Shown in pieces: positions 6,764 through 51,561 of a DNA stretch of 64,000 nucleotides (position 1 is its first letter; the number at the start of each line of letters is the position of its first letter). The translations under genes were made by a program, and so were the position numbers. Origin of the DNA: a virus (taxonomy: Duplodnaviria > Caudoviricetes); IMG/VR virus record IMGVR_UViG_3300043104_000334. One strand, given 5' to 3'. The notes beneath the pieces are model-generated. The model was not told where the DNA came from and ran no database searches. It saw only the letters and a list, made by a program, of their open reading frames with translations.

Positions 6764-8725
6764 TTACTCTAATTCATCAGCGCTCTGCGCGGCATCTGCC
6801 TCAGCCTGCTTGTTAGCAGCCTCCTGAAGAAGCTTGATGGTTGAAGAACCTTCAACGAACTCCTTGGACAGCTTAAGGTTGCCGTCATACACGTTTGCGA
6901 ATACTTCCAGAATCGGAGAGCTTGCGATATCAGCGATATTACCGAAGTTGCCCTTCTGCTTCTCAACAGACATAGCAACGCCCCAACGGGATGCGGTAAC
7001 AGCGATGGACTCATCCGCTTCCTTGTACTCAGCTGCAAATTCTCTCTTGATCTTCGTTACCGGAACAGAAACAGAGATGGATGCGATTCTCTTCTTGAAC
7101 TTCGGATTGCCGTCTTTGTCAACGGTATCGGTCACTTCTCTCTTGCCGTCCTTGATCTTGTAGGTAGCAACGGTAGCATTCATCAACTCGCCCTCAACAG
7201 TGATGGCAGCCTTAAATGCAGCCCTGCCCTCCTGCTCGGTATCTTCCTGCGTGAACAGGAACTGGATGTGGGAACCACCGGCGGTGAACTCTTTCTTGTT
7301 TACCGGACGTACGCACGGAACCTGCTTCTTCTGAACAGTCTGCTGTGTGGTCGGTGCATCTGCTTTCTTGGCTTCTGTCTTTGATGTGATACCAATCTTG
7401 AAGTAAGTCGGCTTGTCACCGATGTCGTTACCCTGCTCATCCATAGAGCCCTCAGCGTAAAGAACGCCGACGCCGTTGTCACATACCTGAATGATGAATT
7501 CATCGACTGTAAGCGGATTTCCATCAACCACATAACCGCGTGTCGGATAGCTTACCTTGTCGTCTCCCGGGATATAAGCCGGAACTTCGCCGAGCGGGTT
7601 CTGCTTGATCTGCTTGCAGAGCTCGTAGATTGCACGTGCCTTCTTGATGTTTACTTCATTGTCATCACAAACGTTTGCCCACTTGCCGCCGGGTTCATTG
7701 TTGTCCGGAAGCGCCTCGAAAGCATCCTGTGACAGGTTGTCCTGACCAGATACAAGAACGATAAAATGATTGATCTTCTCATTGATCTTTTCCAGTGCTT
7801 TGTCCGGATCATCAACACCCGGAACTACGGTACCCATGTTTGTCTTTGTACGCAGAGCCGCCGGCTTCTGAGTAGATACGAGTCCCGTTACAACATGCTG
7901 GCGAGTCCAAGCATTTCTTGTCTGCAGAGTTCCCTGCACAACACTTGCCGCCGCAGCCTTAGCCGCCTTGTCAGCCTTCTTTACTGAATCGGTATTTGAT
8001 TTCTTGTGCTGAACCTCACCCGGGTTCGCTTCTGTAACCTGAGTTCCTGCTGTCTCTGCAGCCTTAAGCAGTTCGGTAACAGTTTCTTCCATTTTAGTGT
8101 CCTCCTTAATAGACATTTTATTTTGTTTAAATAAAGGTTCCGCTTCTTTCTCCTGAACATTCCCTGATGGCATGTCACTACTCGTTTCGGTCTCAATCTC
8201 CTCGTGAGACTCCTGTGAAGAAACACTGTCGGTAAGCGTCTGTTCTCCCTGCTGAGTCTGCTCAGACTCACTCGGTGCTACATCGCTGACGTTCTTCTCA
8301 GTAGAAGCACTCGGACCATTCTGAAGTTCTTCTGATGCCTGAGAAACTTCGCCAGTGCCTTCATTCTTACCGAATACAACCTGTAGTTCTGCCTGCTCAA
8401 TTGATTTCTGCGCAGCCGTTATTTCATCATAAACTTTGAATACAATTTCCCATTTAAGGTAATCCTTGTATTCCGGAAAAACACTTCTTAAGTGTTTCGC
8501 CAGAGGTCCAACGTTTCCGTCGTAAGCCTCAATTAACTCCATGCGCCTGTCTTTTTCACGTTTGTTTTCACGTCCAAGTTCATCTGGATATTCAACAACC
8601 CGGATAGGAGCATCCTCCATCCATTGCTCAACGGCAGGTGCATTCGCGATTTCGTCGCTAACCTTGAAAAGGTTTTTGAATGCAGAACACATTACTTTAA
8701 GTTCTGCGTTAGAATACTTACTCAT
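6764..8725 (-). CDS. Large hypothetical protein with acidic linker and probable internal in-frame start at 8092
   Basis: GGAGGT RBS before ATG 8725; second AAGGAGG RBS 8 nt before in-frame ATG 8092; C-terminal part has GC-richer, biased codons. Confidence 0.8.
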   Translation of the reverse strand: MSKYSNAELKVMCSAFKNLFKVSDEIANAPAVEQWMEDAPIRVVEYPDELGRENKREKDRRMELIEAYDGNVGPLAKHLRSVFPEYKDYLKWEIVFKVYDEITAAQKSIEQAELQVVFGKNEGTGEVSQASEELQNGPSASTEKNVSDVAPSESEQTQQGEQTLTDSVSSQESHEEIETETSSDMPSGNVQEKEAEPLFKQNKMSIKEDTKMEETVTELLKAAETAGTQVTEANPGEVQHKKSNTDSVKKADKAAKAAAASVVQGTLQTRNAWTRQHVVTGLVSTQKPAALRTKTNMGTVVPGVDDPDKALEKINEKINHFIVLVSGQDNLSQDAFEALPDNNEPGGKWANVCDDNEVNIKKARAIYELCKQIKQNPLGEVPAYIPGDDKVSYPTRGYVVDGNPLTVDEFIIQVCDNGVGVLYAEGSMDEQGNDIGDKPTYFKIGITSKTEAKKADAPTTQQTVQKKQVPCVRPVNKKEFTAGGSHIQFLFTQEDTEQEGRAAFKAAITVEGELMNATVATYKIKDGKREVTDTVDKDGNPKFKKRIASISVSVPVTKIKREFAAEYKEADESIAVTASRWGVAMSVEKQKGNFGNIADIASSPILEVFANVYDGNLKLSKEFVEGSSTIKLLQEAANKQAEADAAQSADELE

Positions 8726-9315
8726 TAAGATAACCTCCAATCAATATTTATTTTTTCGGTAGCAACTTTGTTACTTGACCGTGACTGAAGATAAATACAT
8801 ATCTTGTAAATAAGTGTATTCCATTCTGAAAGATTGGATAAGTCAACGAGACCAAACTCTGTGTCTACGTCTCCGCTCATACCATAATAGAGTCTTGTAG
8901 CAGCTTTCAAACTATTGTGACAATGATTTACTTGTTCACTGCCCAATGCGATATACTCACTAACTACATCACCAATCGATGTAACTTTACCACTGTCGAA
9001 ATGAGGTAATATTAGCGTAGCGTCCTTACCTACATTTGAACTGCAAGCAAGCTCGCTATATAACGCCCAACTAGATTCGTACATGAAATATCTTATACAT
9101 ACATCTTCATTGTCAGACTTCAACATCTTCTCATAGTTAAGTGGGTTCCTATGTTGCAACAATGTTTTATGCTCTCGCACGAAACACAGCCACTCAGTAT
9201 AGGGTATGATTATGATTACATTATTCTGACCTCTCCATGGAAACTGAATATTCTTACCCATTAAGACACTGGCTAGGTTATTTCGACTTGCATTCACAAT
9301 CTCCATAACAACCAC
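8725..9315 (-). CDS. Hypothetical protein
   Basis: ORF in operon orientation, just downstream of promoter motif copy E. Confidence 0.65.
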   Translation of the reverse strand: MVVMEIVNASRNNLASVLMGKNIQFPWRGQNNVIIIIPYTEWLCFVREHKTLLQHRNPLNYEKMLKSDNEDVCIRYFMYESSWALYSELACSSNVGKDATLILPHFDSGKVTSIGDVVSEYIALGSEQVNHCHNSLKAATRLYYGMSGDVDTEFGLVDLSNLSEWNTLIYKICIYLQSRSSNKVATEKINIDWRLS

Positions 9316-9360
9316 CAGACAAACTGTTTTAAAATTTAACAGTTTCTTTCTTTTTCTTTC

Positions 9361-9401
9361 TTACACTTAAATATGCGATAAATTGTCAGTATCTTTCAGA
9401 C
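9361..9401 (-). promoter_or_regulatory. Bipartite promoter-like motif, copy E (GTCTGAAA-N18-CATATTTAAGTGTAA)
   Basis: Same 18-nt spacing; more diverged boxes. Confidence 0.55.
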
Positions 9402-9435
9402 ACATAAAAATTTTTTGTAAAGAACTTTTATGTTA

Positions 9436-9855
9436 TCAGTCATCACGGAGACTCTCCGGGTCGAGCGTGTTGTAAATCTCCTGATGTGCATCAAGGTAGA
9501 TTGCAACATCATTCAACATCACTTCGTACTCTGGAACAACATCATCCGGCGTATCAAGCGGTTGAACATAAGTATTGTATAACCTGTGAACCATTTTTCG
9601 TATTTCAGCCTGACGGAATCCCTTAGCACGAAGAATGTCAACAAGTTGGCCAACCGGATTGAGAGTAGTCTTAACGGTATTCTGAATTATAGCATCAACA
9701 GCCATAGAAGATTCAGGTAGCGATAGTGCAGATAGCTTAAACTGTTCTGACTCCATCAAATGCTTGATGCTACTCTGTGCACGCTCAATAGCCAAGCGTT
9801 CACGTTCAGTAGCAACAGCTTCTCTTTTCTTCTTGTACTTATCTGATAATGACAC
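9436..9855 (-). CDS. Hypothetical protein
   Basis: Strong AAGGAGGT RBS. Confidence 0.7.
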   Translation of the reverse strand: MSLSDKYKKKREAVATERERLAIERAQSSIKHLMESEQFKLSALSLPESSMAVDAIIQNTVKTTLNPVGQLVDILRAKGFRQAEIRKMVHRLYNTYVQPLDTPDDVVPEYEVMLNDVAIYLDAHQEIYNTLDPESLRDD

Positions 9856-9870
9856 CTATTACACCTCCTT

Positions 9871-10800: not shown

Positions 10801-10803
10801 CTC

Positions 10804-12429: not shown

Positions 12430-13775
12430 TGTCTCAGTTTCAATATTATTTCACCATAACTCTTTCCGTATAGCTGCGACTTCCTATCTTGTGACAAATA
12501 TAAGAATTTGTTCTTTGGTTTGACAGAATCAGTCTTATTATCCCTTACTAACTCCTGATACACAATCGAGTGCAATGTCTGAATAATTCTATCAGTTGAC
12601 AAATTCGTAATGTCCTGCAATCGACCAATGACATCAGCACATGAATTTGCGTGTAACGTAGATACAACACGTTTACCCGTATTTGTTACACGCATTATAG
12701 ATGTGGCCGTTGTATCACCAGTCTCAGTGATATACACAATATCTGGATTCTGTCGCAATAAGGAATTAATATTTAAATCATATTCTTCCTCATCATTACA
12801 GTTAATCTGTTCAACACCCTCAAGCTCCTGCTCAACAGGCATCTCGATTGATACAACTTTATACTTGTCTTCAATAGTCCACTCTCTCAGACATGCTAAT
12901 GCTGTAGTATTCTTTCCTGACATGGTTGACCCAACAATAAGCCGTAAGCCAAGTTCTCTGTTCATAAAGCAATCTCTAAAGAACTTTACAGTTTCCTTAG
13001 TAAGATTTAAATCCTCAAGACTCTTGTCAAATGCCGCGTTAGGTAACAACCGTATTGTTATTTCGTAGCCATGATATTTGTGATTGATACATACACGACC
13101 ACGATAATAATCATTTAAAGAAACACCAACATACTTAGGATGATTTGTTGAATCATCCATAGGTGACTCACAACACAGAAGCTTTATGATATCCTCAATA
13201 TTATCAGCTGACAGAATACGCTGTGAGTATACTTTGTTCTTCCGAACATTGTAATAAACATTAGCAGACTTTCCAACAGATGATATCGTAATATCAGATG
13301 CATCTAATGCAATACCCTCATTGATAATACTATCAATAAGCTGTCTTGCGGGCATGTCAAGTAAATCAGGATGTGGGCCATATTTCTTCACATACTCTTG
13401 AAAGTAGTTATAGATTGGCGTGTACACAACTTCTACTCGCCTGTTTTCCATTGGCTTATAATTAGAACCAAGCTCAGGCAGTGAGACGCATGTGACCACA
13501 CCACGCATAGGGCTGAATGATACAGGCACAACATTAGAACCGATAAAATGTCTTACGATGTCATCTGGTATATAAGACATTGCTGGAATGTATAAGTCTT
13601 CTTCCTCAGCCCTTTCACATAGTTCGTATATCTTTTCATTGCTCAATAAACGCTGTTCATACAATGCAAGAGCTTCAGCACACTTATATTTGGTCTTGTC
13701 GCGTAAACGCAAATCCGTGTATGATTCTATCTCATGGATAGTCTCCACAGGAACAATACCATTTAAATTAAGCAT
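12405..13775 (-). CDS. GspE/PilB/PilT-family secretion or pilus ATPase
   Basis: ITIRLL, Walker A GSTMSGKNT, SIEMPVE Asp box, LRQNPDIVYITE Walker B, STLHANS His box. Confidence 0.88.
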   Translation of the reverse strand: MLNLNGIVPVETIHEIESYTDLRLRDKTKYKCAEALALYEQRLLSNEKIYELCERAEEEDLYIPAMSYIPDDIVRHFIGSNVVPVSFSPMRGVVTCVSLPELGSNYKPMENRRVEVVYTPIYNYFQEYVKKYGPHPDLLDMPARQLIDSIINEGIALDASDITISSVGKSANVYYNVRKNKVYSQRILSADNIEDIIKLLCCESPMDDSTNHPKYVGVSLNDYYRGRVCINHKYHGYEITIRLLPNAAFDKSLEDLNLTKETVKFFRDCFMNRELGLRLIVGSTMSGKNTTALACLREWTIEDKYKVVSIEMPVEQELEGVEQINCNDEEEYDLNINSLLRQNPDIVYITETGDTTATSIMRVTNTGKRVVSTLHANSCADVIGRLQDITNLSTDRIIQTLHSIVYQELVRDNKTDSVKPKNKFLYLSQDRKSQLYGKSYGEIILKLRQWEGGDIW

Positions 13776-15785: not shown

Positions 15786-16577
15786 TTAATAAACGTCAAT
15801 AATTTTGTATGTTAATAAGACACCAGTTGAATCATGCCGTATGCTAACTGAATCACCTTTCTGCTTACCCATGATTGCTCTAGCCACCCTAGCATTAGCC
15901 GCCATGACACCAATATCAATGAATGCTACTCCATCAGGATAAATACGGTATGTCATTGTTTTACCATTCATCTCCATCCTAACAGTAGAGTATGGAACAA
16001 CAATACCACATGTATTATATCTTGGCATAAGCACGACACTAAGGAATCCTGCTAACGACTGTAAGCAATCATCCTCATCGATATTATACTTAGCTTTAAT
16101 CCAAGACTGGTACGCTTTGCATACGGCGGCAACCTCTGTAATACTCATATTACGAAGCTTTTCTTTCAACGCTTCAGTTCCCGTGACTCCCGCAGCCTTA
16201 AACAGCTGTTCTTTATCTTCTTCCGGCATCTTAATGATAGCCGTCTCCAAATCTGTAAAATCGTACGTACCAATAAGGTACTCAACATCTTCCAACCTAT
16301 CCATAATCTGGAGTACCCTTGCATTACTCCCAATCTCACCAGTAACCATTTTTAAGTTCTGAATGGCCGCCTCTAATGGGGCGTTCTCTGATGCATCTCC
16401 GTCCGCATATGCAAGAACGTAGGCCTCCTCATATTTCTTTTTGTCTTCGAATAATTGCTTCTTAGATTTCTCTAAGTCATCCCTAGCTTTAATTAATGCA
16501 TTCGATATCATACTCGCCGCTTCTTGTAATGACACAGAGTTTAACGCTTTTTGATTATTCATATTACCTCCACTCAT
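15786..16577 (-). CDS. GreA/GreB-family transcription elongation factor with a large insertion
   Basis: GDASENA tip motif; C-terminal VARAIMGKQKGDSV. Confidence 0.75.
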   Translation of the reverse strand: MSGGNMNNQKALNSVSLQEAASMISNALIKARDDLEKSKKQLFEDKKKYEEAYVLAYADGDASENAPLEAAIQNLKMVTGEIGSNARVLQIMDRLEDVEYLIGTYDFTDLETAIIKMPEEDKEQLFKAAGVTGTEALKEKLRNMSITEVAAVCKAYQSWIKAKYNIDEDDCLQSLAGFLSVVLMPRYNTCGIVVPYSTVRMEMNGKTMTYRIYPDGVAFIDIGVMAANARVARAIMGKQKGDSVSIRHDSTGVLLTYKIIDVY

Positions 16578-21638: not shown

Positions 21639-22292
21639 TTATAAAGTTTTCGTTACTGTTGTATTTTTCATCAAATCTTTCTTGAATGTGTACTCAGCAT
21701 CTGTTATTCCGTCCATAGCGTTACGTCTCTGCTCAATACAGATAATTGTCATATCTTTCTTCATTGCTAAGAAAATATCTTTCATAGCACTCGTTGTTGT
21801 ATCACTAAGCGTGAAGAAATATTCATCAAACAATATAAGCTGTAAGGCATCAGGTTGTGCCTTTAAAGCAGCATACCTAAGTAATGCACCGAGTATTGCA
21901 CGGTATCCGCATCCCTCACGCAAATTAACGTTCTGTCCCTGTTCATTAACAACGGAGACACGATTGTTTTCCGTATGCTGTAAATGTATACCATTCACAT
22001 CTGCATCTGGCACAAGGTTACCCGCTTCTTCGATGGCGAGGTCTAAAATATCCCTTGCTTTTTCCTGATGCTTAATATTATAGCTTTTGATATTTTTGTA
22101 GATTGCCGTAAGGTGATTACCTGTCTCCCTGAGATCACCAATCTGCCGTTCCGTTTTCTCCATGAGTTCTTCATACATTTTACGTTTTCCCTCATTGGCT
22201 TTTCCACGGTCACGTCTATCCTGTGATACTGTAAGGGCACTTAATAAATCATGCCTGCAATCAACATATTCTTTTCGCCCGACTTCAGGCAT
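21639..22292 (-). CDS. SbcC/Rad50-like C-terminal half (coiled coil, signature region, Walker B)
   Basis: LREGCGY variant signature, LILFDE..FTLS Walker B/D-loop region; no Walker A. Confidence 0.7.
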   Translation of the reverse strand: MPEVGRKEYVDCRHDLLSALTVSQDRRDRGKANEGKRKMYEELMEKTERQIGDLRETGNHLTAIYKNIKSYNIKHQEKARDILDLAIEEAGNLVPDADVNGIHLQHTENNRVSVVNEQGQNVNLREGCGYRAILGALLRYAALKAQPDALQLILFDEYFFTLSDTTTSAMKDIFLAMKKDMTIICIEQRRNAMDGITDAEYTFKKDLMKNTTVTKTL

Positions 22293-23266
22293 ATGCAATT
22301 ACCTCCTCTCAAGCACTCCACTGAATCATCCTCTTTAAATAACTTCGCAATGACAGACACCTGCGCCGAAGTAAGATTCATTCCGAGAATAGAATCGCCG
22401 GTTCTCACTCCAACAGTACTTTGAACATTGTTACTAGAGATTGAAACGCTGAATGTTCCATTTCCAACCATAAACGTCATTTTCTGCTTAGGGAATGCAG
22501 TTGCCAAGATAAGCAACTTATCAGCAAACTCTTTAAAGCACAAGTCAGTTACCTTAACACACTCGCTCATCTTTTTGTCAATAGCATTGATAATACTTGT
22601 ACTGATATTGTAGTTTGTTGTTGGTATCCAGAACTCATAGTTGCCTGACTCAAAATACAATGTACTTACATTTTGCAGGTAAGCATATTTTGTATCGTCA
22701 TCGAGCTTATACGCAAAATCCCTGAGTGTCGACATAGGTATGCATACCTCTGGATACTGCATATGCTCAACAAAGAATGTCTGTCTAAAATCGACGTAGA
22801 ATCTGTCATTAGCAAAGACTGGGTCTGGGTCAGCAATGGACAATTCTTTTGCAAGACTTAAGCATGATACAGCTGAATGCGTAAGGTACTTAAGCCGCTT
22901 TGCAAATGCCGGTTTCTTCTCAACGTTAGAAACATCAGGAAGTTCTCTTCTCTCTTCATGTTCCTTTACAAACGTTGATGAAAAAGACTCCTGCTCCATA
23001 AATAGAACAGCATCTGAAAATGTCATTGCTATAGGCTTATCTGAATCCAGAATCGCAATAGCCTTTGTTACCCAGAAAGAAACATCAATCGGACTGAAAT
23101 CATTATCAAGTGACTTAACCGGTATTACAGTACAAGCTGTATAGTCACCAATCATTTGTGCCTGAATAGATTTACCGTCCGTTTTGAAATTGAACATTAC
23201 CTTGGTATTTCTGACAAAATCAGAAAATAAGCCAACAAGGTATTTTGCTTCCACTTCAACTTTCAT
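22241..23266 (-). CDS. Putative sliding-clamp (beta-clamp-like) protein
   Basis: 341 aa, repeating beta-alpha pattern, replication context with a DnaX-like loader; no diagnostic motif. Confidence 0.4.
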   Translation of the reverse strand: MKVEVEAKYLVGLFSDFVRNTKVMFNFKTDGKSIQAQMIGDYTACTVIPVKSLDNDFSPIDVSFWVTKAIAILDSDKPIAMTFSDAVLFMEQESFSSTFVKEHEERRELPDVSNVEKKPAFAKRLKYLTHSAVSCLSLAKELSIADPDPVFANDRFYVDFRQTFFVEHMQYPEVCIPMSTLRDFAYKLDDDTKYAYLQNVSTLYFESGNYEFWIPTTNYNISTSIINAIDKKMSECVKVTDLCFKEFADKLLILATAFPKQKMTFMVGNGTFSVSISSNNVQSTVGVRTGDSILGMNLTSAQVSVIAKLFKEDDSVECLRGGNCICLKSGEKNMLIAGMIY

Positions 23267-24694: not shown

Positions 24695-25252
24695 CTACTT
24701 ACATTTCTTTGCAAAGTCCTCAACGATTCGTGAAACTTCTTTTTCGTCAAGACCATAGAAGCCAGCAATATGTTCCGGCGCAACACCATCTGAACTAGCG
24801 AGCAGCACATCGTAAATCTGGTCACTCAACAGCTCAGTAGGCGTGTCCATATACTGGTCTATATAACGGTCAATGCTCTCGATTAGCCGAACCGGGTCAC
24901 CCTTGACAGCCGAATATGATGAGTGAGAAATCTTATCAAGATTCCCAACCATATAACCGTGCTTATCTCTTGTGAGGTAAAGCAACCGGAGATAATTCTT
25001 AACGGTCGTAGAAGATATCTTCATCATTCTGCCGGCATCCTTTAAGGTATTTCCATTTGCATAAACAAGCTCATAAGCTTTCCTCGTCATTGGTGGTGCC
25101 TGCTCAAGCATACGCCAGTACTCATTTACAGTTCTCCGATTATACCGCTTTGGTTCATTTCTTTCTCCCGGTCTGGTACCATACGTTAAAATTTCATAGA
25201 TTGCGTTATGCGGATATGTCCTCCCACTCCGCTCTGCCAAAGTTCGTTTCAT
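24695..25252 (-). CDS. Sigma-70 region 4-like HTH protein
   Basis: NGNTLKDAGRMMKISSTTVKNY; second HTH-like segment at the C-terminus. Confidence 0.6.
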   Translation of the reverse strand: MKRTLAERSGRTYPHNAIYEILTYGTRPGERNEPKRYNRRTVNEYWRMLEQAPPMTRKAYELVYANGNTLKDAGRMMKISSTTVKNYLRLLYLTRDKHGYMVGNLDKISHSSYSAVKGDPVRLIESIDRYIDQYMDTPTELLSDQIYDVLLASSDGVAPEHIAGFYGLDEKEVSRIVEDFAKKCK

Positions 25253-25291: not shown

Positions 25292-26071
25292 TCACTTTAC
25301 TCTATGCTTCCAAGTTTTGACAGTCTGCTCCTTAATAAACTGAACGAAGCCATCCATTTTACTGGCTTTGTCAAAGACCTCAAGTGCCATATAGTAGGTT
25401 TCCTTGTCCTCATTAAAGATAACAGTTGGTGGGTAATCATTAAGCATGAGATAGTAATTCATGATAGCCCTGCCTACCCTGCCATTACCGTCAGCAAACG
25501 GATGAATATTCTCAAGAGACAGATGTAAGAAAGCAGCTCCAACCAGTACATCACACTCAGTGGTATTGATACTGTCAATAAGCTCATCAATTTCTCCATC
25601 GACTTCATCCGGGAACGAACCTACTTCAGTTACCCCGACACAGTAATCGTTCTGCTTGAACTTTCCCGGCCGTTCACCCTTCTTCCATCTCTTCTCATCA
25701 TAGCACCCATGAAGCATAATCTTGTGCAACTTCAATATAAACTCTTTATCAAGTTTTCTCTTATCAGCCAAGTTCTTAAGTAGGTACTCAGTAGCGAACT
25801 TCTGATTCTGTAACTCAAGAATATGACTAACGTCTCCAGTGAAATTTGTTACTTTTCCATCACTAAACAACTCTCTCGTCATATGGTATGACACTGGAAT
25901 GTTTTCAATGTTAGAAGAGTTGTATGCAAATAAAACATTGAAGTTATCAAGTACAGTACAATAGTCCTCGAATGTACTAGCATGATTGGACTTCCACCAT
26001 GCAAGAACATTATCATAAGTAACTACTTTTGTACTGATAACATTTGCTGCATTAAACAATTCACCACTCAT
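25292..26071 (-). CDS. Fic-family protein
   Basis: HPFADGNGRVGR motif; AYNSSNIE; start at MSGELFNAA after GGAGGT. Confidence 0.92.
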   Translation of the reverse strand: MSGELFNAANVISTKVVTYDNVLAWWKSNHASTFEDYCTVLDNFNVLFAYNSSNIENIPVSYHMTRELFSDGKVTNFTGDVSHILELQNQKFATEYLLKNLADKRKLDKEFILKLHKIMLHGCYDEKRWKKGERPGKFKQNDYCVGVTEVGSFPDEVDGEIDELIDSINTTECDVLVGAAFLHLSLENIHPFADGNGRVGRAIMNYYLMLNDYPPTVIFNEDKETYYMALEVFDKASKMDGFVQFIKEQTVKTWKHRVK

Positions 26072-30548: not shown

Positions 30549-30589
30549 TATCATTAGTATATGTTATTAACCTAGTCACTATTTCAGAA
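30549..30589 (-). promoter_or_regulatory. Bipartite promoter-like motif, copy B (TTCTGAAA-N18-CATATACTAATGATA)
   Basis: Both boxes identical to copies C and D. Confidence 0.75.
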
Positions 30590-31325
30590 TGGTTTCTAAA
30601 CGTTGTTCGTTAAACGAGTTTTTGTCAATATACATATACGGAATGTCATAGTGAATTGGTTTTAAGCCAACCATAATTTGATAAATGATATCCGTATCAT
30701 TTTTGTTCTCACCTAATTCACTGACAGAAACGCCATTCTTTTCACAGTAAGATCTCATCAACTTTTCAACCATAGGTATCAATACTGTAGACGGACTATG
30801 AACAATTATGTTTTTCATCCTTAGACAAGTAGCTGCCCTTGGTATAGTCAGTGCACATCCTAATTGCATGATCATGTTGTAAAGGAATATATACTCTGTG
30901 TCTGGTATATCTTCAATTGTAAGCTGTCTAGCCACAGTGTGCATCAACAATGTTGGAACATTCCAATTTATTTCTTTACTATAACTGATCTTATCAATTT
31001 TAGATATACCCTCAAACTCACTTCTAACGAGCTCTGTAAGAAATTCGTTACATTCTTTCTTTATCGCGAATAAGGGACCATCATAAGATTCGTCGTAGAC
31101 AATATAAAACTCGATATGTTGCAACTTTGAAGTTTTCATTTGAATTATGTTCATGGGTGCAACATAAATTTCAACAATAAAATCCAGATATGCATCGGCA
31201 AGACTAGAAACTATTTTTTCAAGCTTCACAACATCTGTGATAATATCTTCATCATTCTGCTTTATATCAGCAGCCATTCCACCCGTTGTTGCTGCGCTTA
31301 ATAATTGATTCATATTCATATTCAT
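30579..31325 (-). CDS. Hypothetical protein with N-terminal QLLSAA peptide
   Basis: AAGGAGGT RBS. Confidence 0.7.
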   Translation of the reverse strand: MNMNMNQLLSAATTGGMAADIKQNDEDIITDVVKLEKIVSSLADAYLDFIVEIYVAPMNIIQMKTSKLQHIEFYIVYDESYDGPLFAIKKECNEFLTELVRSEFEGISKIDKISYSKEINWNVPTLLMHTVARQLTIEDIPDTEYIFLYNMIMQLGCALTIPRAATCLRMKNIIVHSPSTVLIPMVEKLMRSYCEKNGVSVSELGENKNDTDIIYQIMVGLKPIHYDIPYMYIDKNSFNEQRLETILK

Positions 31326-33126: not shown

Positions 33127-34464
33127 TTAACCATGCCATTCATTATCACGCAAAACTGTATCATCACAAACGTCTACATCACCACAAACTGTAGTTTCCT
33201 TTTCTACTCTAGCGTCCTGATAAATTCTCGCATGACCATAAACCTCAACACTATCTTTAACTATAGCATTATCAAACACACTAGCCTCCTCAGAAACCTT
33301 AGCATTTCCAGAAACCTTGGCATTACCATACACTTGTGCACAAGCACCAATATAAGCACACTCATAAATTTCTGCATTCTCGAACACTCTTGCACCATCT
33401 ACCTTTGCATTGTCATATACACGTGCATTTCCATACACTTGTGCATTATCAATTATACATGCGTCGCCACTCACGTGAGCATTACCAAACACCAAAGCTT
33501 CGTCCGTTATCGTAACGTTACCATCAACGTAAGCTTCATCATAAATTTGAATCTCACCATTTATTGTAGCGTTACTACCAACCCTGGACTCTCCATAGAT
33601 ATAAGCCTCTTCAAACACTTTTGCATTACCGTACACGTAGGCATTACCTATTACTCTAGCGTCGCCATAAACTTTGGCATCATCAGCAACCCAGCAATTT
33701 CCTGTATGCGAGAGATTCTCTTCATACTGAATAAATCCACCTAAATCTCCAGCTTTGACTTTTCTACATTGACAATTAAAATCTTTTAAAGACACTATCC
33801 TGTGGAGTACATGACCATCCTCTTCAATTGTATCACCAGTGAATTCATATTTCTTTTCGTCAATCTGATTTGTATCATTACACACAAAGTGTATTGTATA
33901 ACATCCAGTATCAAGTATAGAATCACCACGAACCTTAGCAGAACCAGTTACAAAAGCATCCCTGCACACCTGTGCATAATCAGTAACCTTCCCACTCTCA
34001 TTCACTATAGCGTAACCATACACTCTAGCATTTCCACCAACAGTAGCATCATGATAAGCTTTAGTATCTCCATAAATCTTAGCATAGCCAGTTATATGTG
34101 CATGTCCAAATACTGCAGCTTCATCATAGACCATGGCATTCTCATCTACTAAAGCACTTCCATAAACCCTAGCATGGCCTTTTACACTAGCATGCCTTAA
34201 GACTTTAGCATCCTGATAAACCATAGCATCCTCGTACACCCAGCAATCACCATTATGCGATAAATTCTTTTCACTCTCAACATATCCACCCAATTCACCG
34301 GCTCTAACATAATTGCTTCCTGTGACATCTACTAATGCTCTTATCCTATGAAGTACGTGATTGTCTACCTCAATTGTTTCATCTGTGAGTTCATACTTCT
34401 TACCTGTTTTGTCCCCATCCGTATTAACCTTGCTAGCTGCACTTAATAGTTTATCTAATCCCAT
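33127..34464 (-). CDS. Hexapeptide-repeat (left-handed beta-helix) protein with two modules
   Basis: Two KKYE.T...LHRI...GG..E.E.NLSH.G.CWV caps, each followed by [VI]YGNA[KR]-type repeats. Confidence 0.85.
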   Translation of the reverse strand: MGLDKLLSAASKVNTDGDKTGKKYELTDETIEVDNHVLHRIRALVDVTGSNYVRAGELGGYVESEKNLSHNGDCWVYEDAMVYQDAKVLRHASVKGHARVYGSALVDENAMVYDEAAVFGHAHITGYAKIYGDTKAYHDATVGGNARVYGYAIVNESGKVTDYAQVCRDAFVTGSAKVRGDSILDTGCYTIHFVCNDTNQIDEKKYEFTGDTIEEDGHVLHRIVSLKDFNCQCRKVKAGDLGGFIQYEENLSHTGNCWVADDAKVYGDARVIGNAYVYGNAKVFEEAYIYGESRVGSNATINGEIQIYDEAYVDGNVTITDEALVFGNAHVSGDACIIDNAQVYGNARVYDNAKVDGARVFENAEIYECAYIGACAQVYGNAKVSGNAKVSEEASVFDNAIVKDSVEVYGHARIYQDARVEKETTVCGDVDVCDDTVLRDNEWHG

Positions 34465-34492
34465 TTGACTTCACCTACTTTACTATGAAACT

Positions 34493-35254
34493 CTATACTT
34501 CTACTTTACCATAAGTGATTATGACGTTGTCACATACTTTAGCATTTCCTTTAATCAAAGCATTACCAAGGACCTGTGCATTACCACATACTCTTGCATT
34601 ACCACAAACTTCAGCTTCTTCCCAAACTTGAGCGTTTTCATAAACTTCAGCTTTTCCACAGATATTAGCATTTCCATAAATGCTAGCATGACCATAAATC
34701 TTAGAGTGACCTGCTATCACAGCGTAATCATGAGCCTCAGCAAAAGCATGTATTTCTGCGAGTCCCTCCACATTAGCATGGCCATAGATCCGTGCATTGT
34801 CATAAACCTTAGCACACTGATAGATAGCACTGTTATCATAGACACGAGCGCAACCATATACATTAGCATCTCCATGAACCCATGCATGACCATATATACT
34901 AGCGCCATGGTTTACGTGCGCGTGTTCACAAACTCTTGCGGTATCATACACTTCAGCATTACCCATAATTTTAGCATTTTCTGAGACGCTTACATCTCCA
35001 TAAACCATAGCATTATCATACACCCAACAGCAGCCACCATGTGACAAATTCTCTTCCTTCTCAATAAAGCCGCCCAGACTACCATCCGTGACCCTTGATT
35101 CACTCCAACTCGGCCCAAAACTTTTTAATGCTTTTATTCTGTGAAGTATGTGACTATCGACAGTAATTATCTCATCAGTGAGAACATACTTCTTATCCTG
35201 CTCTCCATTGACATTAACTTTACCAGCTGCTTCCATTAAACTATCTAGACCCAT
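34493..35254 (-). CDS. Hexapeptide-repeat protein, paralogue of 33127-34464
   Basis: Same cap and repeats; start at MGLDSLMEAA after GAGGTG. Confidence 0.85.
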   Translation of the reverse strand: MGLDSLMEAAGKVNVNGEQDKKYVLTDEIITVDSHILHRIKALKSFGPSWSESRVTDGSLGGFIEKEENLSHGGCCWVYDNAMVYGDVSVSENAKIMGNAEVYDTARVCEHAHVNHGASIYGHAWVHGDANVYGCARVYDNSAIYQCAKVYDNARIYGHANVEGLAEIHAFAEAHDYAVIAGHSKIYGHASIYGNANICGKAEVYENAQVWEEAEVCGNARVCGNAQVLGNALIKGNAKVCDNVIITYGKVEV

Positions 35255-35267: not shown

Positions 35268-35777
35268 TCACAATAGTACTTCGTAGCTGTCTTCTGAACG
35301 CTTGATAATCTCAATAGGATAACCAAGTACAGGCTCACAGTCCGTGTACTTATTATCCGTGCAGTCATCAAGTAAGAAGCAGTTCCATACTTTTACAATG
35401 GCTGAGTATATACCGACTCCCTCCGGAGCTGCATCGTGCTGATGAATAAGTGCAAGGTTGAACTTCGCTTTTCTCCCGGTCGTAACATAATAACCCGTCC
35501 ATCTCAAGGCTTCCATAACCGTAATGAATTCATCATCACACACAACACCGTTCTTTACATACAGTGCAATCATATCAGCCTGCCGGATAAGCTCCGTTGC
35601 CTTTGTTCTCACATCAACCGGATCAACTCCGACAAACTTCTGGCACGTAAGCGCATATACCCTAGCAATCTTCGTGCAGAAGTGCGAAAGGTTAACTGAG
35701 CAATCTTTTTCTGTGTCTGTCTTAGCACCTCTTGGCCCACCCATAAGTGCCGCCTTTAATAATAACTCTTTTCCCAT
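35268..35777 (-). CDS. Hypothetical protein with N-terminal ELLLKAA peptide
   Basis: AGGAGG RBS. Confidence 0.7.
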   Translation of the reverse strand: MGKELLLKAALMGGPRGAKTDTEKDCSVNLSHFCTKIARVYALTCQKFVGVDPVDVRTKATELIRQADMIALYVKNGVVCDDEFITVMEALRWTGYYVTTGRKAKFNLALIHQHDAAPEGVGIYSAIVKVWNCFLLDDCTDNKYTDCEPVLGYPIEIIKRSEDSYEVLL

Positions 35778-44465: not shown

Positions 44466-44468
44466 TCC

Positions 44469-46107: not shown

Positions 46108-46130
46108 TCCAGATACAGCAAGAATACTTA

Positions 46131-47222
46131 CTAATCTGCGTTTAGCTGTCTGATATTATCATAGATAGCATTCAGATTCTTAGCCCTGATGGTGTTTGGG
46201 CTATTGATAGCCATAAGTGCATCACAAGGATTAACACTATAAGTAACCATAAAGTTGCATTTTACACCGACTGAATTAAGAATGAATACTACCAACTCAC
46301 AGTAGACACGAGGGTCATACTTGATTTTTTCAGAGGTAATTTTCGTAATCTCTTCTACAGAGTATCCCCAATAATCTGCAAGCTCTTCGACATCAACTCC
46401 CGCAAGTATATCAGCGAAGTTGTATTCTTCCCGCTGTATATTACCATTTCTGAGATACTCAACAACAAACCTTGGATAGTCCTGTGACAGGTCATAAAGT
46501 CTGCACACATCCATTGTCTCACTGTAAGGAATGTTGTACACATACTTAGCAGTAATACTAAGTGTATCATCCCTGTTTGAAGACTTGTAACCCATCAAGT
46601 CCTTATATGTCGTCTTATAATCTGCGAGAACCCCTTCAACCGATAGTCTCATAAACTCATCAACAAGTTCCGGTTTTGTCTTAAGTAACTTGTCGAACTC
46701 ATCAATTCCGAAGCATGCAGCAATACAGTTCATATAGTATAAAGAGTGTAACAGCTTACTGTTCTTCATATCCTCAAACAGTTTTAGTATTTCATTTATT
46801 CTGATTCCGGGCGTCGAGTATTCACCAATACCATCCGGAGTATATGACACCTGATAGTAATACCCTCTAAATAGATGTAAGTATCTATTATACTTAAGGG
46901 CAAGCGTAGGTGTGCCATTTGAGTTCTTTTTAATATACGGCTCAAACTTAAGGTAACCAAGTTTCGCAGCGCTTGCAAGGAATGCATCAAGAGTTTTTTC
47001 CTCTGTCTTGATTTTTCCATAACAAGAGTTAATACGCTCCCAGTTCTTTTCTGGTATGAACTTAATACACTCCTCTGGCTCTGTCTGATAAACCATGACA
47101 TCAGTATAGCCATCTGCCAGAAGCTTTGTGATGACCATGTCACGATTTTTGTGTGTCTCATTGTCTGCTGTCGCAACAGACACACTCACACGGTTTGCGG
47201 CTCTTAATAATTCATTGTTCAT
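46131..47222 (-). CDS. Hypothetical protein with N-terminal ELLRAA peptide
   Basis: First gene after promoter motif copy D. Confidence 0.7.
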   Translation of the reverse strand: MNNELLRAANRVSVSVATADNETHKNRDMVITKLLADGYTDVMVYQTEPEECIKFIPEKNWERINSCYGKIKTEEKTLDAFLASAAKLGYLKFEPYIKKNSNGTPTLALKYNRYLHLFRGYYYQVSYTPDGIGEYSTPGIRINEILKLFEDMKNSKLLHSLYYMNCIAACFGIDEFDKLLKTKPELVDEFMRLSVEGVLADYKTTYKDLMGYKSSNRDDTLSITAKYVYNIPYSETMDVCRLYDLSQDYPRFVVEYLRNGNIQREEYNFADILAGVDVEELADYWGYSVEEITKITSEKIKYDPRVYCELVVFILNSVGVKCNFMVTYSVNPCDALMAINSPNTIRAKNLNAIYDNIRQLNAD

Positions 47223-47381: not shown

Positions 47382-47634
47382 TTGTCATCTCACATCTTTG
47401 ATTACTTACTCATATTATAATTTTAAAGAAGTTGATTAAACATATCTGCTGTAAGACTATCTTATGCTCTTAAGTATTCACATATCTCTATTGATATACC
47501 AAATGTCTTTGTGTCATTTGACGTAAGTCTGATAGAGCGTAATCAAATGTATTTTCAAGACTATTTTTAACTCATAATAAACCTCAAGTTATAATAATAT
47601 TTTGTTGATTTTTTGACAGCTATAATACAACTGT

Positions 47635-48058
47635 TAGTGGACCTGACGGGAGTCGAACCCGTGTCCAAAGATAGTACTCATAGTAACATCTACATCTTAG
47701 GAAAACTTTCAGCGTTTTATATAAGAGTGTGACGGCTTAAGGGTTACCAACCTCTCCTATTACTAGAACTCCACACAATCACGATATCTCCTCTTCCTTG
47801 CTCATGACGGAATCTCACGCATGTTGATTTACGAGCAACATAAATTGACTGTTTACTTTATAGTACTAAACGTTGAGGCAGTATCCACCATCGTTCCAGT
47901 ACCCGGTACTAAACCGGAGGCTATTTACATAAATCCTAAAAATGATTAAGCAGCGATAGCCATTTTACGCGTGTTTGCGCTTATTTTAAATTTGGTTTAA
48001 GGTGACCAACCGATGCAGTTATTTACTTTCGTACCCCTGTCGAAACCATTACAGGCCC
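47635..48058 (-). ncRNA. ssrA: tmRNA; tag (A)ANTRKMAIAA
   Basis: 5' GGGCCTGTAATGGTTTCGAC; 3' GACACGGGTTCGACTCCCGTCAGGTCCA; G3-U wobble in acceptor stem; resume GCA at 47978, stop at 47946. Confidence 0.95.
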
Positions 48059-48260
48059 AGATACTTATTTAATATAAACGTGTTTATAAAATTACAAATG
48101 TGTAGGTATAAGCTTCATAATTATTATAAAGCCTACACCTACAATAATACATTGTCTATTCGTTAGTAGCTATTATCGTTCCTACCTTTGTATAAAGGAA
48201 GCTACCCAGACGATAAGACTAAACCGGACATGTCAGCATACACATTTTTTCTCAAATATT

Positions 48261-48815
48261 TTATGATCGTTCATAGCGATAATATTTCGGTTTATCACCA
48301 AATCTCATTACACCACCATTCTCGTTCCTTAAGTAAACACCGTCTTCTTCTACAGAAAATGTGTACCCCTTCATTCGTCCTGCAGCGAAAGTGCACCTCC
48401 CGGTCATAGGGCCATCAAAGTCATATGAATCGAGTTCCCACTTTTCGGGTTTGGCACATTGATACAGCATGTAAGCCATCCTGACGTTATCGTCTTCACA
48501 ACTGCGCAAAGCTACCCTAAGTGCTTCATTGTGTACGATTTTCTTCAACCATAATTCTGAAGTAAGGTCTGGATTTTTCCACAATCTGCATAATCTGTTT
48601 GTTACACCAAATATCACTCGTGCATTAAATGCTCTCATACCATCCAGCCCAATAGTTGAGTCATCCGTCCTAATCATATTGAGTGTCAGATACATCGTTT
48701 CTTCATCAGATTTTATCCCATTCGCAGACTGTTCAGATGAAACCTCATCTGAATCTTCCCCAATGTTCATCTCAGCTGCTTTAGCAGCGTCTAATAATTC
48801 ATCAAGCATTGACAT
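48261..48815 (-). CDS. Hypothetical protein with N-terminal ELLDAA peptide
   Basis: AAAGGAG RBS before MSMLDELLDAA. Confidence 0.7.
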   Translation of the reverse strand: MSMLDELLDAAKAAEMNIGEDSDEVSSEQSANGIKSDEETMYLTLNMIRTDDSTIGLDGMRAFNARVIFGVTNRLCRLWKNPDLTSELWLKKIVHNEALRVALRSCEDDNVRMAYMLYQCAKPEKWELDSYDFDGPMTGRCTFAAGRMKGYTFSVEEDGVYLRNENGGVMRFGDKPKYYRYERS

Positions 48816-48864
48816 AATAGTTTCTCCTTTAAACATTTATTACTGTTACCGAACCGAACATGTA

Positions 48865-49047
48865 TTAGTACATATACTTCCTATTGTACTCTCTTACACG
48901 TTCGTCATTGTGAGGACAGTCTCCACAGCCCATATGGCTGAAACCATCGTTGTGACAGCCATCACAACTATAACTCTCTACACCAGGACCACGGTCATGT
49001 TCACACCCACACCCAAACAAGATTGGTCCATCAAATTCATCTCCCAT
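48865..49047 (-). CDS. Small Cys/His-rich protein
   Basis: AAGGAGG RBS; CGCEH, CDGCH, CGDCPH. Confidence 0.55.
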   Translation of the reverse strand: MGDEFDGPILFGCGCEHDRGPGVESYSCDGCHNDGFSHMGCGDCPHNDERVREYNRKYMY

Positions 49048-49067
49048 TTTATTCCTCCTTTATTTTA

Positions 49068-50402: not shown

Positions 50403-50450
50403 TTTGATAGTCTCCTTTATTACTATAGAATGAATTGAATGTTCTTATAA

Positions 50451-50738
50451 TTATATCATGAATCTACCTGTAAGCTCCTTAGTTACTAACCCGAGAAATA
50501 CAAACTTGCAAATGCCATAAAGCCCGAGTGCACATACAAGCAATACTGTTACTAAAGCCAGTACTGGACTTATGCCATAGAGGAACCCATTCATAACAGG
50601 AAGCATCAATGCCGACATGGCAATATACACCATAACAACATCACAGATTACTTTCTTTCTGTAAATCATAAGGCCGTCAGATTCTCTTAACTTGCCTACC
50701 ACTTTCTCAATTTTCTTGTTCATATTTATTTCCTCCAT
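50451..50738 (-). CDS. Two-TM membrane protein
   Basis: Two hydrophobic helices. Confidence 0.6.
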   Translation of the reverse strand: MEEINMNKKIEKVVGKLRESDGLMIYRKKVICDVVMVYIAMSALMLPVMNGFLYGISPVLALVTVLLVCALGLYGICKFVFLGLVTKELTGRFMI

Positions 50739-50747
50739 ATTCTCGCT

Positions 50748-51149
50748 TTATTTTATCTCATAGACTTTCTTCATAGCTTTGATCATATGCTGTATATCTT
50801 TTCTTGAAAACCCAGACTCATCAAGCACTGTATTATTTTCATCAGTTACTACTACACGATAACTTTCACCTGATGGTGGTGTATTTTCTAGCATACTATT
50901 GAGCACATTATTTAGGTATAGTTCACCTCTAATATTGCAGTCAGATTGCGATCTTCTAAACCAGATGTGTGCATCACCCTTGTAGTACAATGCTCGTTCG
51001 AGGTCTTCTACCATTTCGGAAGCTTTCTTCTTATCGAAACTAAACGTTGCATCATGATTCTTTCCATACACAATTAGCTCGTACGAGCCTACAATGGTTT
51101 GTTTTGCTATTATTCCTTTACTCTCGTTGCTATTCTCAATTTTACCCAT
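50748..51149 (-). CDS. Hypothetical protein
   Basis: Start at MGKIEN after AAGGAG. Confidence 0.6.
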   Translation of the reverse strand: MGKIENSNESKGIIAKQTIVGSYELIVYGKNHDATFSFDKKKASEMVEDLERALYYKGDAHIWFRRSQSDCNIRGELYLNNVLNSMLENTPPSGESYRVVVTDENNTVLDESGFSRKDIQHMIKAMKKVYEIK

Positions 51150-51150
51150 T

Positions 51151-51561
51151 TTAATCTCCTTTATAAGGATAAGCAACCGGTTCAATAGCAATATCAAAAT
51201 TGCTATAATCAATGTTCGTAATATGCACATTGTAATAGCAATCATATCTCTCGTAATAGATGTCACCAGTATCAGCATTTGCTGTTGGTGCAGCTGCTCC
51301 GGGCTTATGCAATGATTTATTCCATTTCTCCACGCTATCAACAGACCGAGTAGAATGAAATTCGGTATACCCTTCCTCTTCTAAAGAACACATAAAAGTA
51401 TCATCTACACAACACCTGAATTGCACACTGTGAAACTTCAATCTATTGAAAGCTTCCTTAAGTGGCAAATCCTTAAACTTAGTATTACATTGCTGTGAGG
51501 ATTCTGTATTTACATTTGCAGATATAGACATAGCACTTTTAAGCAATTCATTCATAAGCAT
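51151..51561 (-). CDS. Hypothetical protein with N-terminal ELLKSA peptide
   Basis: In operon orientation. Confidence 0.65.
   Translation of the reverse strand: MLMNELLKSAMSISANVNTESSQQCNTKFKDLPLKEAFNRLKFHSVQFRCCVDDTFMCSLEEEGYTEFHSTRSVDSVEKWNKSLHKPGAAAPTANADTGDIYYERYDCYYNVHITNIDYSNFDIAIEPVAYPYKGD

What the first reader, a model, noticed from the sequence alone, without database searches (positions are those of the whole stretch)
8057..51561. Shared N-terminal 'ELLxAA' leader on about nine mostly unrelated proteins: candidate targeting or packaging signal
Seen in sequence, with starts set by RBS position: MEETVTELLKAAETAG (internal start 8092), MSGELFNAANVIS (Fic, 26071), MNMNQLLSAATTGG (31325), MGLDKLLSAASKVN (34464), MGLDSLMEAAGKVN (35254), MGKELLLKAALMGG (35777), MNNELLRAANRVS (47222), MSMLDELLDAAKAAE (48815), MLMNELLKSAMSIS (51561). 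Each has [EDQ]-(x)-L-[LMF]-x-[AS]-A within about 12 residues of the start. Most then have a polar linker before a body of a different kind (Fic, two paralogous beta-helix proteins, orphans). The replication enzymes here lack the motif. Established analogy: T4 internal proteins share a short N-terminal capsid-targeting sequence. Inference: a portable amphipathic helix marks cargo for virion packaging and injection, for export by the element's ATPases, or for docking on a hub protein. It could define an undescribed effector-delivery system.
Basis: partly seen in the sequence, partly recalled or inferred. Interest (0 to 1): 0.88.

Follow-up and report, generated by a model that had tools for sequence, protein, structure and literature searches.

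The report
Shared N-terminal address tag on cargo
About one protein in ten in this stretch of a giant plasmid-like element from gut bacteria starts with the same short helix (…E-L-L-x-A-A…) joined by a floppy linker to unrelated enzymes, so it acts like a portable address label, but I could not identify the machine that reads it.

Summary
The motif [EDQ]x?L[LMF]x[AS]A sits right after nine ribosome-binding-site-backed start codons. It occurs at only one internal site in about 18,400 coding positions (0.03 N-terminal hits expected).

The tag behaves as a portable add-on:
- None of the 120 best outside homologues of the beta-solenoid protein has it, and the nearest plasmid Fic lacks it.
- The two beta-solenoid genes are missing from a 55-60% identical relative, so a recent insertion carries the tag.
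- Orthologues of six tagged families in relatives keep the motif positions. In the 48815 pair the linker changes length.
- All 25 orthologues checked of one conserved 650-aa protein keep an internal Met followed by the tag. The three whose DNA I read also keep a Shine-Dalgarno site there, so the tag would lie at a free N-terminus.
- A distant 216-kb Lachnospiraceae relative uses a dialect (F-x-x-A-I-x-x-M-S-G).

Cargo includes Fic, a weakly HipA-like kinase and a P-loop kinase. Searches found no capsid, microcompartment-shell or C39-exporter genes. The replication enzymes lack the tag.

Best reading: a delivery or docking tag read by an element-encoded partner, perhaps the FtsK-like translocation ATPase. 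The scan had already noted this tag elsewhere in the same genome (e1-5762460).

The parts
6764..8092 (-). Tagged 442-aa short isoform (MEETVTELLKAAETAG...), made from an internal start in the 653-aa gene 8725-6764
   Evidence: AGGAGG lies 9 nt before the ATG. The internal Met plus tag is kept in all 25 orthologues checked. The Shine-Dalgarno site is seen in the DNA of the window, L017 and the 216-kb relative. AF2 shows a lone helix at 213-225 inside the disordered stretch 120-250.
6764..8725 (-). Full-length 653-aa conserved protein of unknown fold: helical N-domain, acidic disordered linker, tag, C-domain, and a tag-like C-terminal helix (KLLQEAANKQAE)
   Evidence: No Pfam, PDB or fold match.
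25292..26071 (-). Tagged Fic-domain protein (MSGELFNAANVIS...)
   Evidence: Pfam Fic 1.2e-18 at residues 107-208. The pig-gut orthologue keeps the tag, MNKELMHAANKAV. A Lactococcus plasmid Fic (45% identical) aligns from residue 19 and has no tag.
30579..31325 (-). Tagged orphan (MNMNMNQLLSAATTGG...). The real start is probably 31319 or 31313.
   Evidence: The orthologue in L021 starts MNELLRAASAGS. No Pfam or PHROG hit.
33127..34464 (-). Tagged YdcK-type beta-solenoid protein (MGLDKLLSAASKVN...) built of two tandem modules
   Evidence: Pfam B_solenoid_ydck, phrog_5070 and phrog_7964; profile matches start at residue 22. None of 120 outside homologues carries the tag. The second module, at about residue 197, has no tag. 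The gene is absent from the pig-gut relative.
34493..35254 (-). Tagged beta-solenoid paralogue (MGLDSLMEAAGKVN...)
   Evidence: 44% identical to the first module of 34464, tag included. Absent from the pig-gut relative.
35268..35777 (-). Tagged orphan (MGKELLLKAALMGG...)
   Evidence: The orthologue in L021 starts MGLEQLLGAAAKGA.
46131..47222 (-). Tagged orphan (MNNELLRAANRVS...) of a family conserved across these elements
   Evidence: In alignment A1 only the 100% and 71% relatives carry the tag. More distant orthologues have another N-terminal domain of about 150 aa, or none.
48261..48815 (-). Tagged orphan (MSMLDELLDAAKAAE...)
   Evidence: The orthologue in L001 keeps the tag (MASSELLRAAGKAN), while the tag-plus-linker region before the homologous body shrinks from 77 to 44 residues.
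51151..51561 (-). Tagged orphan (MLMNELLKSAMSIS...)
   Evidence: No family hit. No orthologue examined.

Best explanation
The tag is a modular address or docking peptide. It forms a roughly 12-residue amphipathic helix at the free N-terminus, with the pattern phi-[DN]-x-[LM]-[LM]-x-A-A-x-x-[AV]-[SNG], and a polar flexible linker joins it to unrelated, mostly accessory or effector-like proteins.

Shown:
- It is strongly enriched at N-termini.
- It is selected at the protein level.
- It is absent from outside homologues.
- It is carried by recently inserted genes.
- Orthologues keep the motif positions. In the 48815 pair the linker changes length.
- In one core gene a conserved internal start exposes it.
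- A distant relative uses a different dialect of it.

Inferred: one element-encoded partner reads the tag. My preferred mechanism is that the tag hands cargo to the element's own membrane translocation machinery. I saw an FtsK/SpoIIIE-like ATPase in the relative and a T2SSE/VirB11-like ATPase in the window; earlier scan notes also report a VirB4-like ATPase. The cargo would then leave the cell or travel with the DNA into a new host. I put about 0.85 on 'portable docking or targeting tag' and about 0.35 on the translocation reading.
For: - Enrichment and statistics.
- Synonymous codon variation.
- Helix plus linker: AF2 predicts a lone helix at 213-225 inside a disordered stretch. Hydrophobic moment is 0.35-0.77, against 0.37 for untagged proteins, and the linker is polar.
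- Add-on nature: none of 120 beta-solenoid homologues is tagged, and they begin where residue 22 aligns. The plasmid Fic starts 3 residues before the position that aligns with residue 19. The internal duplicate module is untagged.
- Gain by new genes: the beta-solenoid pair is missing from relative L021.
- Retention: orthologues of Fic, 35777, 31325, 47222, 48815 and 8092 keep L, [LMF], A and A.
- Need for a free N-terminus: the internal Met plus tag is kept in all 25 orthologues checked, and the Shine-Dalgarno site is kept in all three DNAs read.
- Dialect in the 216-kb Lachnospiraceae relative: MTRIFDDAINAMSG, MDFMKAINAMSG and others.
- Effector-like cargo: Fic, a HipA-like kinase (weak) and a P-loop kinase.
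- Machinery: FtsK_SpoIIIE 3.7e-13 on a 1197-aa protein of the relative and T2SSE 1.8e-34 at window 13775.
- Precedent: a short N-terminal helix can act as a T4SS signal (PMC10100965).
Against: - No reader has been identified.
- Known T4SS and T7SS signals are mostly C-terminal or are whole domains.
- I could confirm VirB4 only weakly in the relative (P-loop_TraG 8e-4, below cut-off; no AAA_10 hit on the contig).
- Pfam finds no WXG100 on the element.
- Tagged proteins are acidic and contain 0.9-4.1% Cys, which is not typical of secreted Gram-positive proteins. It would still fit cell-to-cell delivery.
- A nucleotide kinase is an odd effector.
- The relative tags only about 3% of its proteins, against about 10% in this window.
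Confidence: 0.35

Rival explanations
1. The tag is an intracellular docking or scaffolding peptide. It would recruit accessory enzymes to a soluble element-encoded hub, such as the element's own beta sliding clamp, the lidless Hsp70 homologue, RNA polymerase or the conserved 8725-family protein. Alternatively, the tags bind one another to form a condensate or factory, as microcompartment encapsulation peptides do.
For: - The architecture (short terminal helix plus disordered linker) is that of BMC encapsulation peptides and of clamp/PCNA-binding motifs (PMC4594438 and PMC12339742).
- The element has its own very divergent beta clamp at 23266-22241 (AF2 pLDDT 96.4, Foldseek TM 0.73 to DnaN).
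- The relative encodes an Hsp70-family protein without a lid (Pfam 1.1e-68).
- The only tagged protein conserved across the whole family lies in the replication cluster and also ends in a tag-like helix, VKLLQAAANKQAE.
- The Cys-containing, acidic, enzyme-type cargo fits a cytoplasmic destination.
Against: - The expected clamp partners lack the tag: both PolA proteins, FEN, RNase H, the ligase and the clamp loader.
- The motif does not resemble QL[SD]LF.
- No J-domain gene was found on the relative.
- No BMC shell gene was found in the MAG.
- A hub-binding motif would not need a free N-terminus, yet the tag always starts within residues 2-8, and an internal start is conserved to expose it.
Confidence: 0.3
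2. The tag is a particle-packaging signal like the T4 capsid targeting sequence. It would load cargo into a capsid or other shell and might then be cleaved off.
For: - The arrangement matches T4 IPI-III/Alt (my own knowledge).
- Nested in-frame isoforms, as in 8725/8092, are common in phage head-assembly genes.
- Beta-solenoid homologues occur in phage families phrog_5070 and phrog_7964.
- The element is phage-like in having its own replication and transcription genes.
Against: - No Phage_capsid hit on the complete 216-kb relative.
- PHROG hits on ten large unknown proteins were only replication functions.
- Three IMG/VR scans (two window proteins and one family alignment) found no relatives.
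- There is no conserved cleavage-type motif after the tag.
- Earlier scan notes on the rest of this genome report no virion genes (e1-5762423; I did not check this myself).
- Very divergent structural genes cannot be excluded.
Confidence: 0.1
3. The tag is an N-terminal degron or regulatory peptide. It would mark a set of accessory proteins for timed proteolysis or for inhibition, not for relocation.
For: - The tag sits at the extreme N-terminus.
- The cargo includes potentially toxic enzymes (Fic, HipA-like) whose amount might need tight control.
Against: - It does not resemble known ClpX, ClpS or Lon N-terminal signals (my own knowledge).
- I found no element-encoded protease.
- The dialect changes between relatives, which argues for an element-encoded reader that co-evolves with the tag, not a conserved host protease.
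Confidence: 0.1
4. There is no function: the pattern comes from chance, composition or codon bias near start codons.
For: AT-rich N-terminal codons are common in low-GC genomes. The motif was defined post hoc.
Against: - 9 hits observed against 0.03 expected, with leave-one-out support.
- GC-rich Ala codons lie inside the motif, and codons vary synonymously.
- Orthologues keep the motif, and it lies on an N-terminal extension that outside homologues lack.
Confidence: 0.02

Closest known systems
Capsid targeting sequence (CTS) of phage T4 internal proteins IPI, IPII, IPIII and Alt (own knowledge)
   Same: A short shared N-terminal peptide on otherwise unrelated, partly host-modifying proteins of one mobile genome. 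It is portable to new cargo.
   Different: The CTS is read by the prohead scaffold core and cut off by the prohead protease. Here I found no capsid, protease or cleavage motif, and the sequence is unrelated.
Encapsulation peptides of bacterial microcompartments (PMC4594438, PMC12339742) and cargo-loading peptides of encapsulins
   Same: A terminal amphipathic helix of about 10-18 residues with a phi-x-x-phi-phi-x-x-phi pattern, joined by a poorly conserved disordered linker to unrelated enzymes.
   Different: No BMC shell gene (PF00936) was found in the related MAG. The cargo here is not a metabolic pathway, and the tag belongs to a mobile element.
N-terminal alpha-helical T4SS translocation signal found in NanoLuc with Legionella Dot/Icm (PMC10100965)
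   Same: A short helix close to the N-terminus is enough for recognition by a type IV coupling complex and carries fused proteins along.
   Different: That signal is a Gram-negative, chaperone (IcmSW)-dependent, serendipitous case. It is not a family of natural tagged substrates, and no such signal is known for Gram-positive conjugation systems.
Bartonella VbhT/Bep Fic proteins with a BID translocation domain (own knowledge)
   Same: A Fic enzyme gains a portable delivery module and becomes a substrate of a conjugation-type T4SS.
   Different: BID is a C-terminal domain of about 100 residues plus a charged tail, not a 12-residue N-terminal helix.
Double-glycine leader peptides exported by C39-peptidase ABC transporters (own knowledge)
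   Same: An N-terminal amphipathic helix of similar length. Three of the nine tags end in GG or AG.
   Different: Six of nine lack GG, the hydrophobic register at -4/-7/-12 does not fit, the cargo is large enzymes, and no C39 domain was found on the relative element.

Membership tests
T4-type capsid targeting sequence | Short shared N-terminal peptide on unrelated proteins of one genome | tested here: met
   Nine proteins in eight families.
T4-type capsid targeting sequence | A capsid, scaffold core and prohead protease encoded by the same genome | tested here: inconclusive
   No PF05065 hit on the 216-kb relative. PHROG hits on ten large unknown proteins were replication functions only. No IMG/VR relatives. 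Divergent folds are not excluded.
T4-type capsid targeting sequence | Cleavage of the tag at a conserved protease site | not testable with these tools
   No conserved cleavage-like motif was seen after the tag. This needs N-terminal proteomics.
BMC encapsulation peptide | Terminal amphipathic helix plus disordered linker | tested here: met
   AF2 predicts a lone helix at 213-225 inside a disordered region. Hydrophobic moment and linker polarity support it.
BMC encapsulation peptide | BMC shell proteins (PF00936) present | tested here: not met
   No hit in the relative's whole MAG, element contig included. The MAG may be incomplete.
Double-glycine leader / C39 ABC exporter | GG at -2/-1 with hydrophobic residues at -4, -7 and -12 | tested here: not met
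   Only 31325, 35777 and 8092 end in GG or AG, and the register does not fit.
Double-glycine leader / C39 ABC exporter | C39 peptidase-ABC transporter encoded nearby | tested here: not met
   PF03412 hits only a host contig (C63), not the element contig C5.
Beta-clamp binding motif | A beta clamp is present | tested here: met
   Window 23266-22241 has the DnaN fold.
Beta-clamp binding motif | QL[SD]LF-like motif carried by polymerases, ligase and other replication and repair proteins | tested here: not met
   The tag differs from the consensus, and PolA, FEN, RNase H, the clamp loader and the ligase lack it. Binding itself is untested.
Type VII secretion substrate (WXG100/LXG) | WXG100 or LXG helical domain | tested here: not met
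   Tagged bodies are Fic, beta-solenoid or orphan proteins. The small paired proteins at 62805-63528 give no WXG100 hit, and no WXG100 hit lies on the relative element contig.
Type IV secretion / conjugative protein substrate | A coupling ATPase and T4SS channel encoded by the element | tested here: inconclusive
   FtsK_SpoIIIE 3.7e-13 on a 1197-aa membrane protein of the relative. The VirB4-like candidate is only weak (P-loop_TraG 8e-4), and there is no AAA_10 hit.
Type IV secretion / conjugative protein substrate | Tag-dependent translocation | not testable with these tools

The most novel reading that the evidence does not exclude
Giant plasmid-like elements of about 180-215 kb in gut Lachnospiraceae run an undescribed protein-delivery system. 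A 12-residue N-terminal helix would be the translocation signal that sends Fic, HipA-like kinases, beta-solenoid proteins and many orphans through the element's FtsK/VirB11-type machinery into recipient or rival cells. Newly captured genes would become substrates simply by gaining the tag.
Probability: 0.25. Interest if true: 0.85.

Novelty: new variant of a known kind. Interest (0 to 1): 0.66.

Why it matters
If one partner reads the tag, it defines the cargo list of an unknown sorting or delivery system in a family of giant gut mobile elements that have barely been described. About 10% of the genes in this window would belong to that list. The tag could then be used to find effectors by sequence alone.

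It would also be a ready-made, very short tag for directing proteins in Lachnospiraceae. The conserved internal start that exposes the tag, and the tagging of freshly acquired genes, show how new cargo is recruited.

Tried and rejected
- **Short tag profile.** A search of the relative genome with the tag profile was too insensitive. I scanned the contig in Python instead.
- **IMG/VR.** Three scans found no relatives. 400 other Lachnospiraceae genomes lacked the 8725 family.
- **8725 protein.** The PDB profile search, Foldseek, VIA-align and the Atlas gave no meaningful match.
- **GreA-like protein 16562.** Its N-terminus (SLQEAASMIS) and internal EQLFKAAG looked like weak tags. They are not conserved as tags in orthologues, so I treat them as chance.
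- **C-terminal '...GLF'.** It occurs on two proteins and looked like a possible clamp motif, but it is not conserved in orthologues.
- **Double-glycine leader, BMC peptide and WXG100 readings.** I rejected these on the motif register and the lack of partner genes.
- **Hsp70-like reader.** There is no J-domain partner on the element and no test was possible.
- **Literature.** Searches found no description of these elements or of this tag.

Full report
**Setting.** All genes in the window lie on the minus strand, and GC is about 39%. The window matches no catalogued phage, and no whole genome is held for it.

Pfam and PHROG identify these genes:
- family-A DNA polymerase at 59351
- UvrD helicase at 20830
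- clamp loader at 6342
- T2SSE/VirB11-type ATPase at 13775
- GreA/GreB-like factor at 16562
- HD-GYP-type, PilZ and GNAT proteins

Earlier scan notes describe the genome as a roughly 193-kb circular plasmid-like element of uncultured Bacillota with its own RNA polymerase. I did not re-test that. I did recover relatives:
- Contigs of 175-207 kb carry orthologues of the 8725 protein.
- Pig-gut and other ENA contigs of about 181.8 kb are 55-60% identical at the protein level (L017, L019, L021).
- A 215,949-bp contig from a Lachnospiraceae MAG has every gene on one strand and a syntenic core. I fetched it whole. Below I call it the 216-kb relative.

All nine N-termini read as claimed and have ribosome-binding sites.
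- A six-frame scan finds the motif at these nine starts. Besides these it finds one internal site in a real gene, one non-coding-frame hit and one + strand hit.
- Counts are 9 of 87 N-termini against one internal site in 18,361 positions (Fisher p about 4e-10). Shuffling predicts 0.03 N-terminal hits.
- In leave-one-out scoring, 8 of 9 tags rank within the top 8 of 18,514 background positions.
- Codons for the conserved Leu and Ala differ among copies, so selection acts on the peptide.
- 34464 and 35254 are paralogues, which leaves eight independent families.

**The tag is an add-on.**
- The 120 best outside homologues of beta-solenoid protein 34464 all start at 'KKYELTDET', which aligns with residue 22 of 34464. 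None has the motif. The second, internal copy of the module in 34464 also lacks it.
- The nearest plasmid Fic protein (Lactococcus, 45% identical) aligns from residue 19 and has only three residues before that point.
- In the 47222 family only the 100% and 71% relatives are tagged. More distant orthologues carry a different N-terminal domain of about 150 residues, or none.
- In the pig-gut relative both beta-solenoid genes are missing from an otherwise syntenic block. A recent insertion therefore carries a tag that none of the 120 best outside homologues of 34464 has.

**The tag is kept where the gene is kept.** Orthologues of Fic (MNKELMHAANKAV), 35777 (MGLEQLLGAAAKGA), 31325 (MNELLRAASAGS), 47222, 48815 and 8092 keep the L, [LMF], A and A positions, while the other positions drift. 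In the 48815 pair the region before the homologous body shrinks from 77 to 44 residues.

**The strongest case is the 653-aa gene 8725-6764.**
- It is a single gene in all relatives.
- AF2 predicts a helical N-domain, a disordered acidic stretch at 120-250 that contains one lone helix at 213-225 (the tag), and a C-domain of unknown fold.
- All 25 orthologues checked (36-100% identical) keep, inside this variable stretch, an internal Met followed by the tag. Examples are MSE-IDEMLKAAEKAA, MEN-DAMKAMMEAAQKAG and MAS-VDDLLKAADAAKG.
- The Met is preceded by EE, or in one case GG. In the three DNAs I could read, these codons spell AAGGAGG or GGAGG 8-9 nt before the ATG.
- I infer a conserved internal start that places the tag at a free N-terminus. 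This fits the tag beginning within residues 2-8 in every other case.

**Dialects.** The 216-kb relative does not use LLxAA. At least seven of its proteins begin with F/I-x-x-A-I-x-x-M-S-G, among them MTRIFDDAINAMSG, MDFMKAINAMSG, MDWIDAINKMSG, MTIFSEAISAMAG and MSDITNDVEKAILAMSG. Both versions fit one amphipathic helix with hydrophobic or small residues at positions -3, 0, 1, 3, 4 and 7 and a Gly/Ser/Asn cap. A tag that changes between elements argues for an element-encoded reader that co-evolves with it.

**Cargo.** Identified bodies are:
- Fic
- two YdcK-type beta-solenoids
- in relatives, a cytidylate-kinase-like P-loop kinase whose domain starts at residue 19-20, a weakly HipA-like kinase and a DUF1232 protein

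The rest are orphans. Tagged proteins are acidic and contain 0.9-4.1% Cys. The replication proteins are untagged.

- Clamp. Window 23266-22241 is a very divergent beta sliding clamp (pLDDT 96.4; Foldseek TM 0.73, E 1e-13 to DnaN). Its expected partners lack the tag, and the motif is unlike QL[SD]LF.
- Hsp70. The relative encodes a lidless Hsp70 homologue but no J-domain protein.
- Missing partners. The relative contig gives no hit for BMC shell, HK97 capsid, C39 peptidase, WXG100 or AAA_10.
- ATPases. The relative has an FtsK/SpoIIIE-like 1197-aa membrane ATPase. The window has a T2SSE ATPase conserved within the core.

I favour a delivery signal for the element's own translocation machinery, for four reasons: the strict need for a free N-terminus, the toxin-like enzymes among the cargo, these ATPases, and a published case of a short N-terminal helix acting as a T4SS signal (PMC10100965). 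I put this at about 0.35. Cytoplasmic hub docking or self-association in the manner of BMC encapsulation peptides (PMC12339742) comes close behind at 0.3. One untested lead is that the 8725 family ends in a conserved tag-like helix, VKLLQAAANKQAE. That protein could itself be the hub, or could pair with the tags.

**Novelty.** Shared terminal targeting peptides are a known kind of feature (T4 CTS, BMC and encapsulin peptides). This sequence, its host elements and its reader are not described in the papers I could search. The scan had already noted the same tag in another window of this genome (e1-5762460). My work adds:
- statistics for this window
- the outside-homologue tests
- tagging of a recent insertion
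- the conserved internal start
- the dialect in a distant relative
- exclusion of several candidate readers

Noticed in passing
window 22241-23266 (-): A 341-aa protein with no Pfam hit is a very divergent beta sliding clamp (AF2 pLDDT 96.4; Foldseek TM 0.73 and 9-13% identity to DnaN structures). It has about 80 homologues of the same length. The element therefore carries its own clamp as well as a clamp loader.
   Followed up: yes
window 6764-8725 (-): The gene appears to make two in-frame isoforms from a conserved internal Shine-Dalgarno site plus ATG. The family also ends in a conserved tag-like helix (VKLLQAAANKQAE). Its fold is unknown.
   Followed up: partly
window 15786-16562 (-): A GreA/GreB-like transcript-cleavage factor (C-terminal domain 3e-07) lies directly upstream of a 669-aa unknown protein and a T2SSE/VirB11-type ATPase (13775-12405). 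The block is conserved in all relatives and sits inside the replication cluster, an odd place for a secretion-type ATPase.
   Followed up: partly
L007:12729-14039 (-), 216-kb Lachnospiraceae relative: The element encodes an Hsp70-family protein of 436 aa (Pfam 1.1e-68) that covers the nucleotide-binding domain and the beta substrate-binding domain but has no lid. No J-domain gene lies on the contig.
   Followed up: partly
window 33127-35254 (-): The two beta-solenoid genes are absent from the syntenic block of the pig-gut relative (L021), so they are a lineage-specific insertion. 34464 is itself a tandem duplication of the module.
   Followed up: yes
L015:3854-3919 (-), 216-kb relative: A 21-codon ORF consists of a tag only (MSMLQDIDSSLMHAINSMNGD, then a stop), 82 nt upstream of an ATPase gene. 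It may be a decayed tagged gene or a free tag peptide.
   Followed up: no
alignment A1 (47222 family): Many untagged orthologues start with M-x-Y, and about half carry a shared N-terminal domain of about 150 residues where this window has the tag. This is an example of N-terminal module swapping.
   Followed up: no
window 24695-25252 (-): A 185-aa protein with a sigma-70 region 4-like helix-turn-helix (4.8e-06) lies directly downstream of the tagged Fic gene. It could be a regulator or a sigma-like factor for the element's own polymerase.
   Followed up: no
window 48865-49047 (-): A 60-aa protein with 10% Cys (CxC and CxxC patterns) and a strong ribosome-binding site lies just upstream of tagged gene 48815.
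   Followed up: no
window 62805-63528 (-): Two small helical proteins (99 and 125 aa) have identical 20-nt upstream leaders. They were noted earlier as WXG100-like, but they give no Pfam WXG100 hit, and BLAST finds no counterpart in the 216-kb relative. That relative has a similar pair in the same position.
   Followed up: partly
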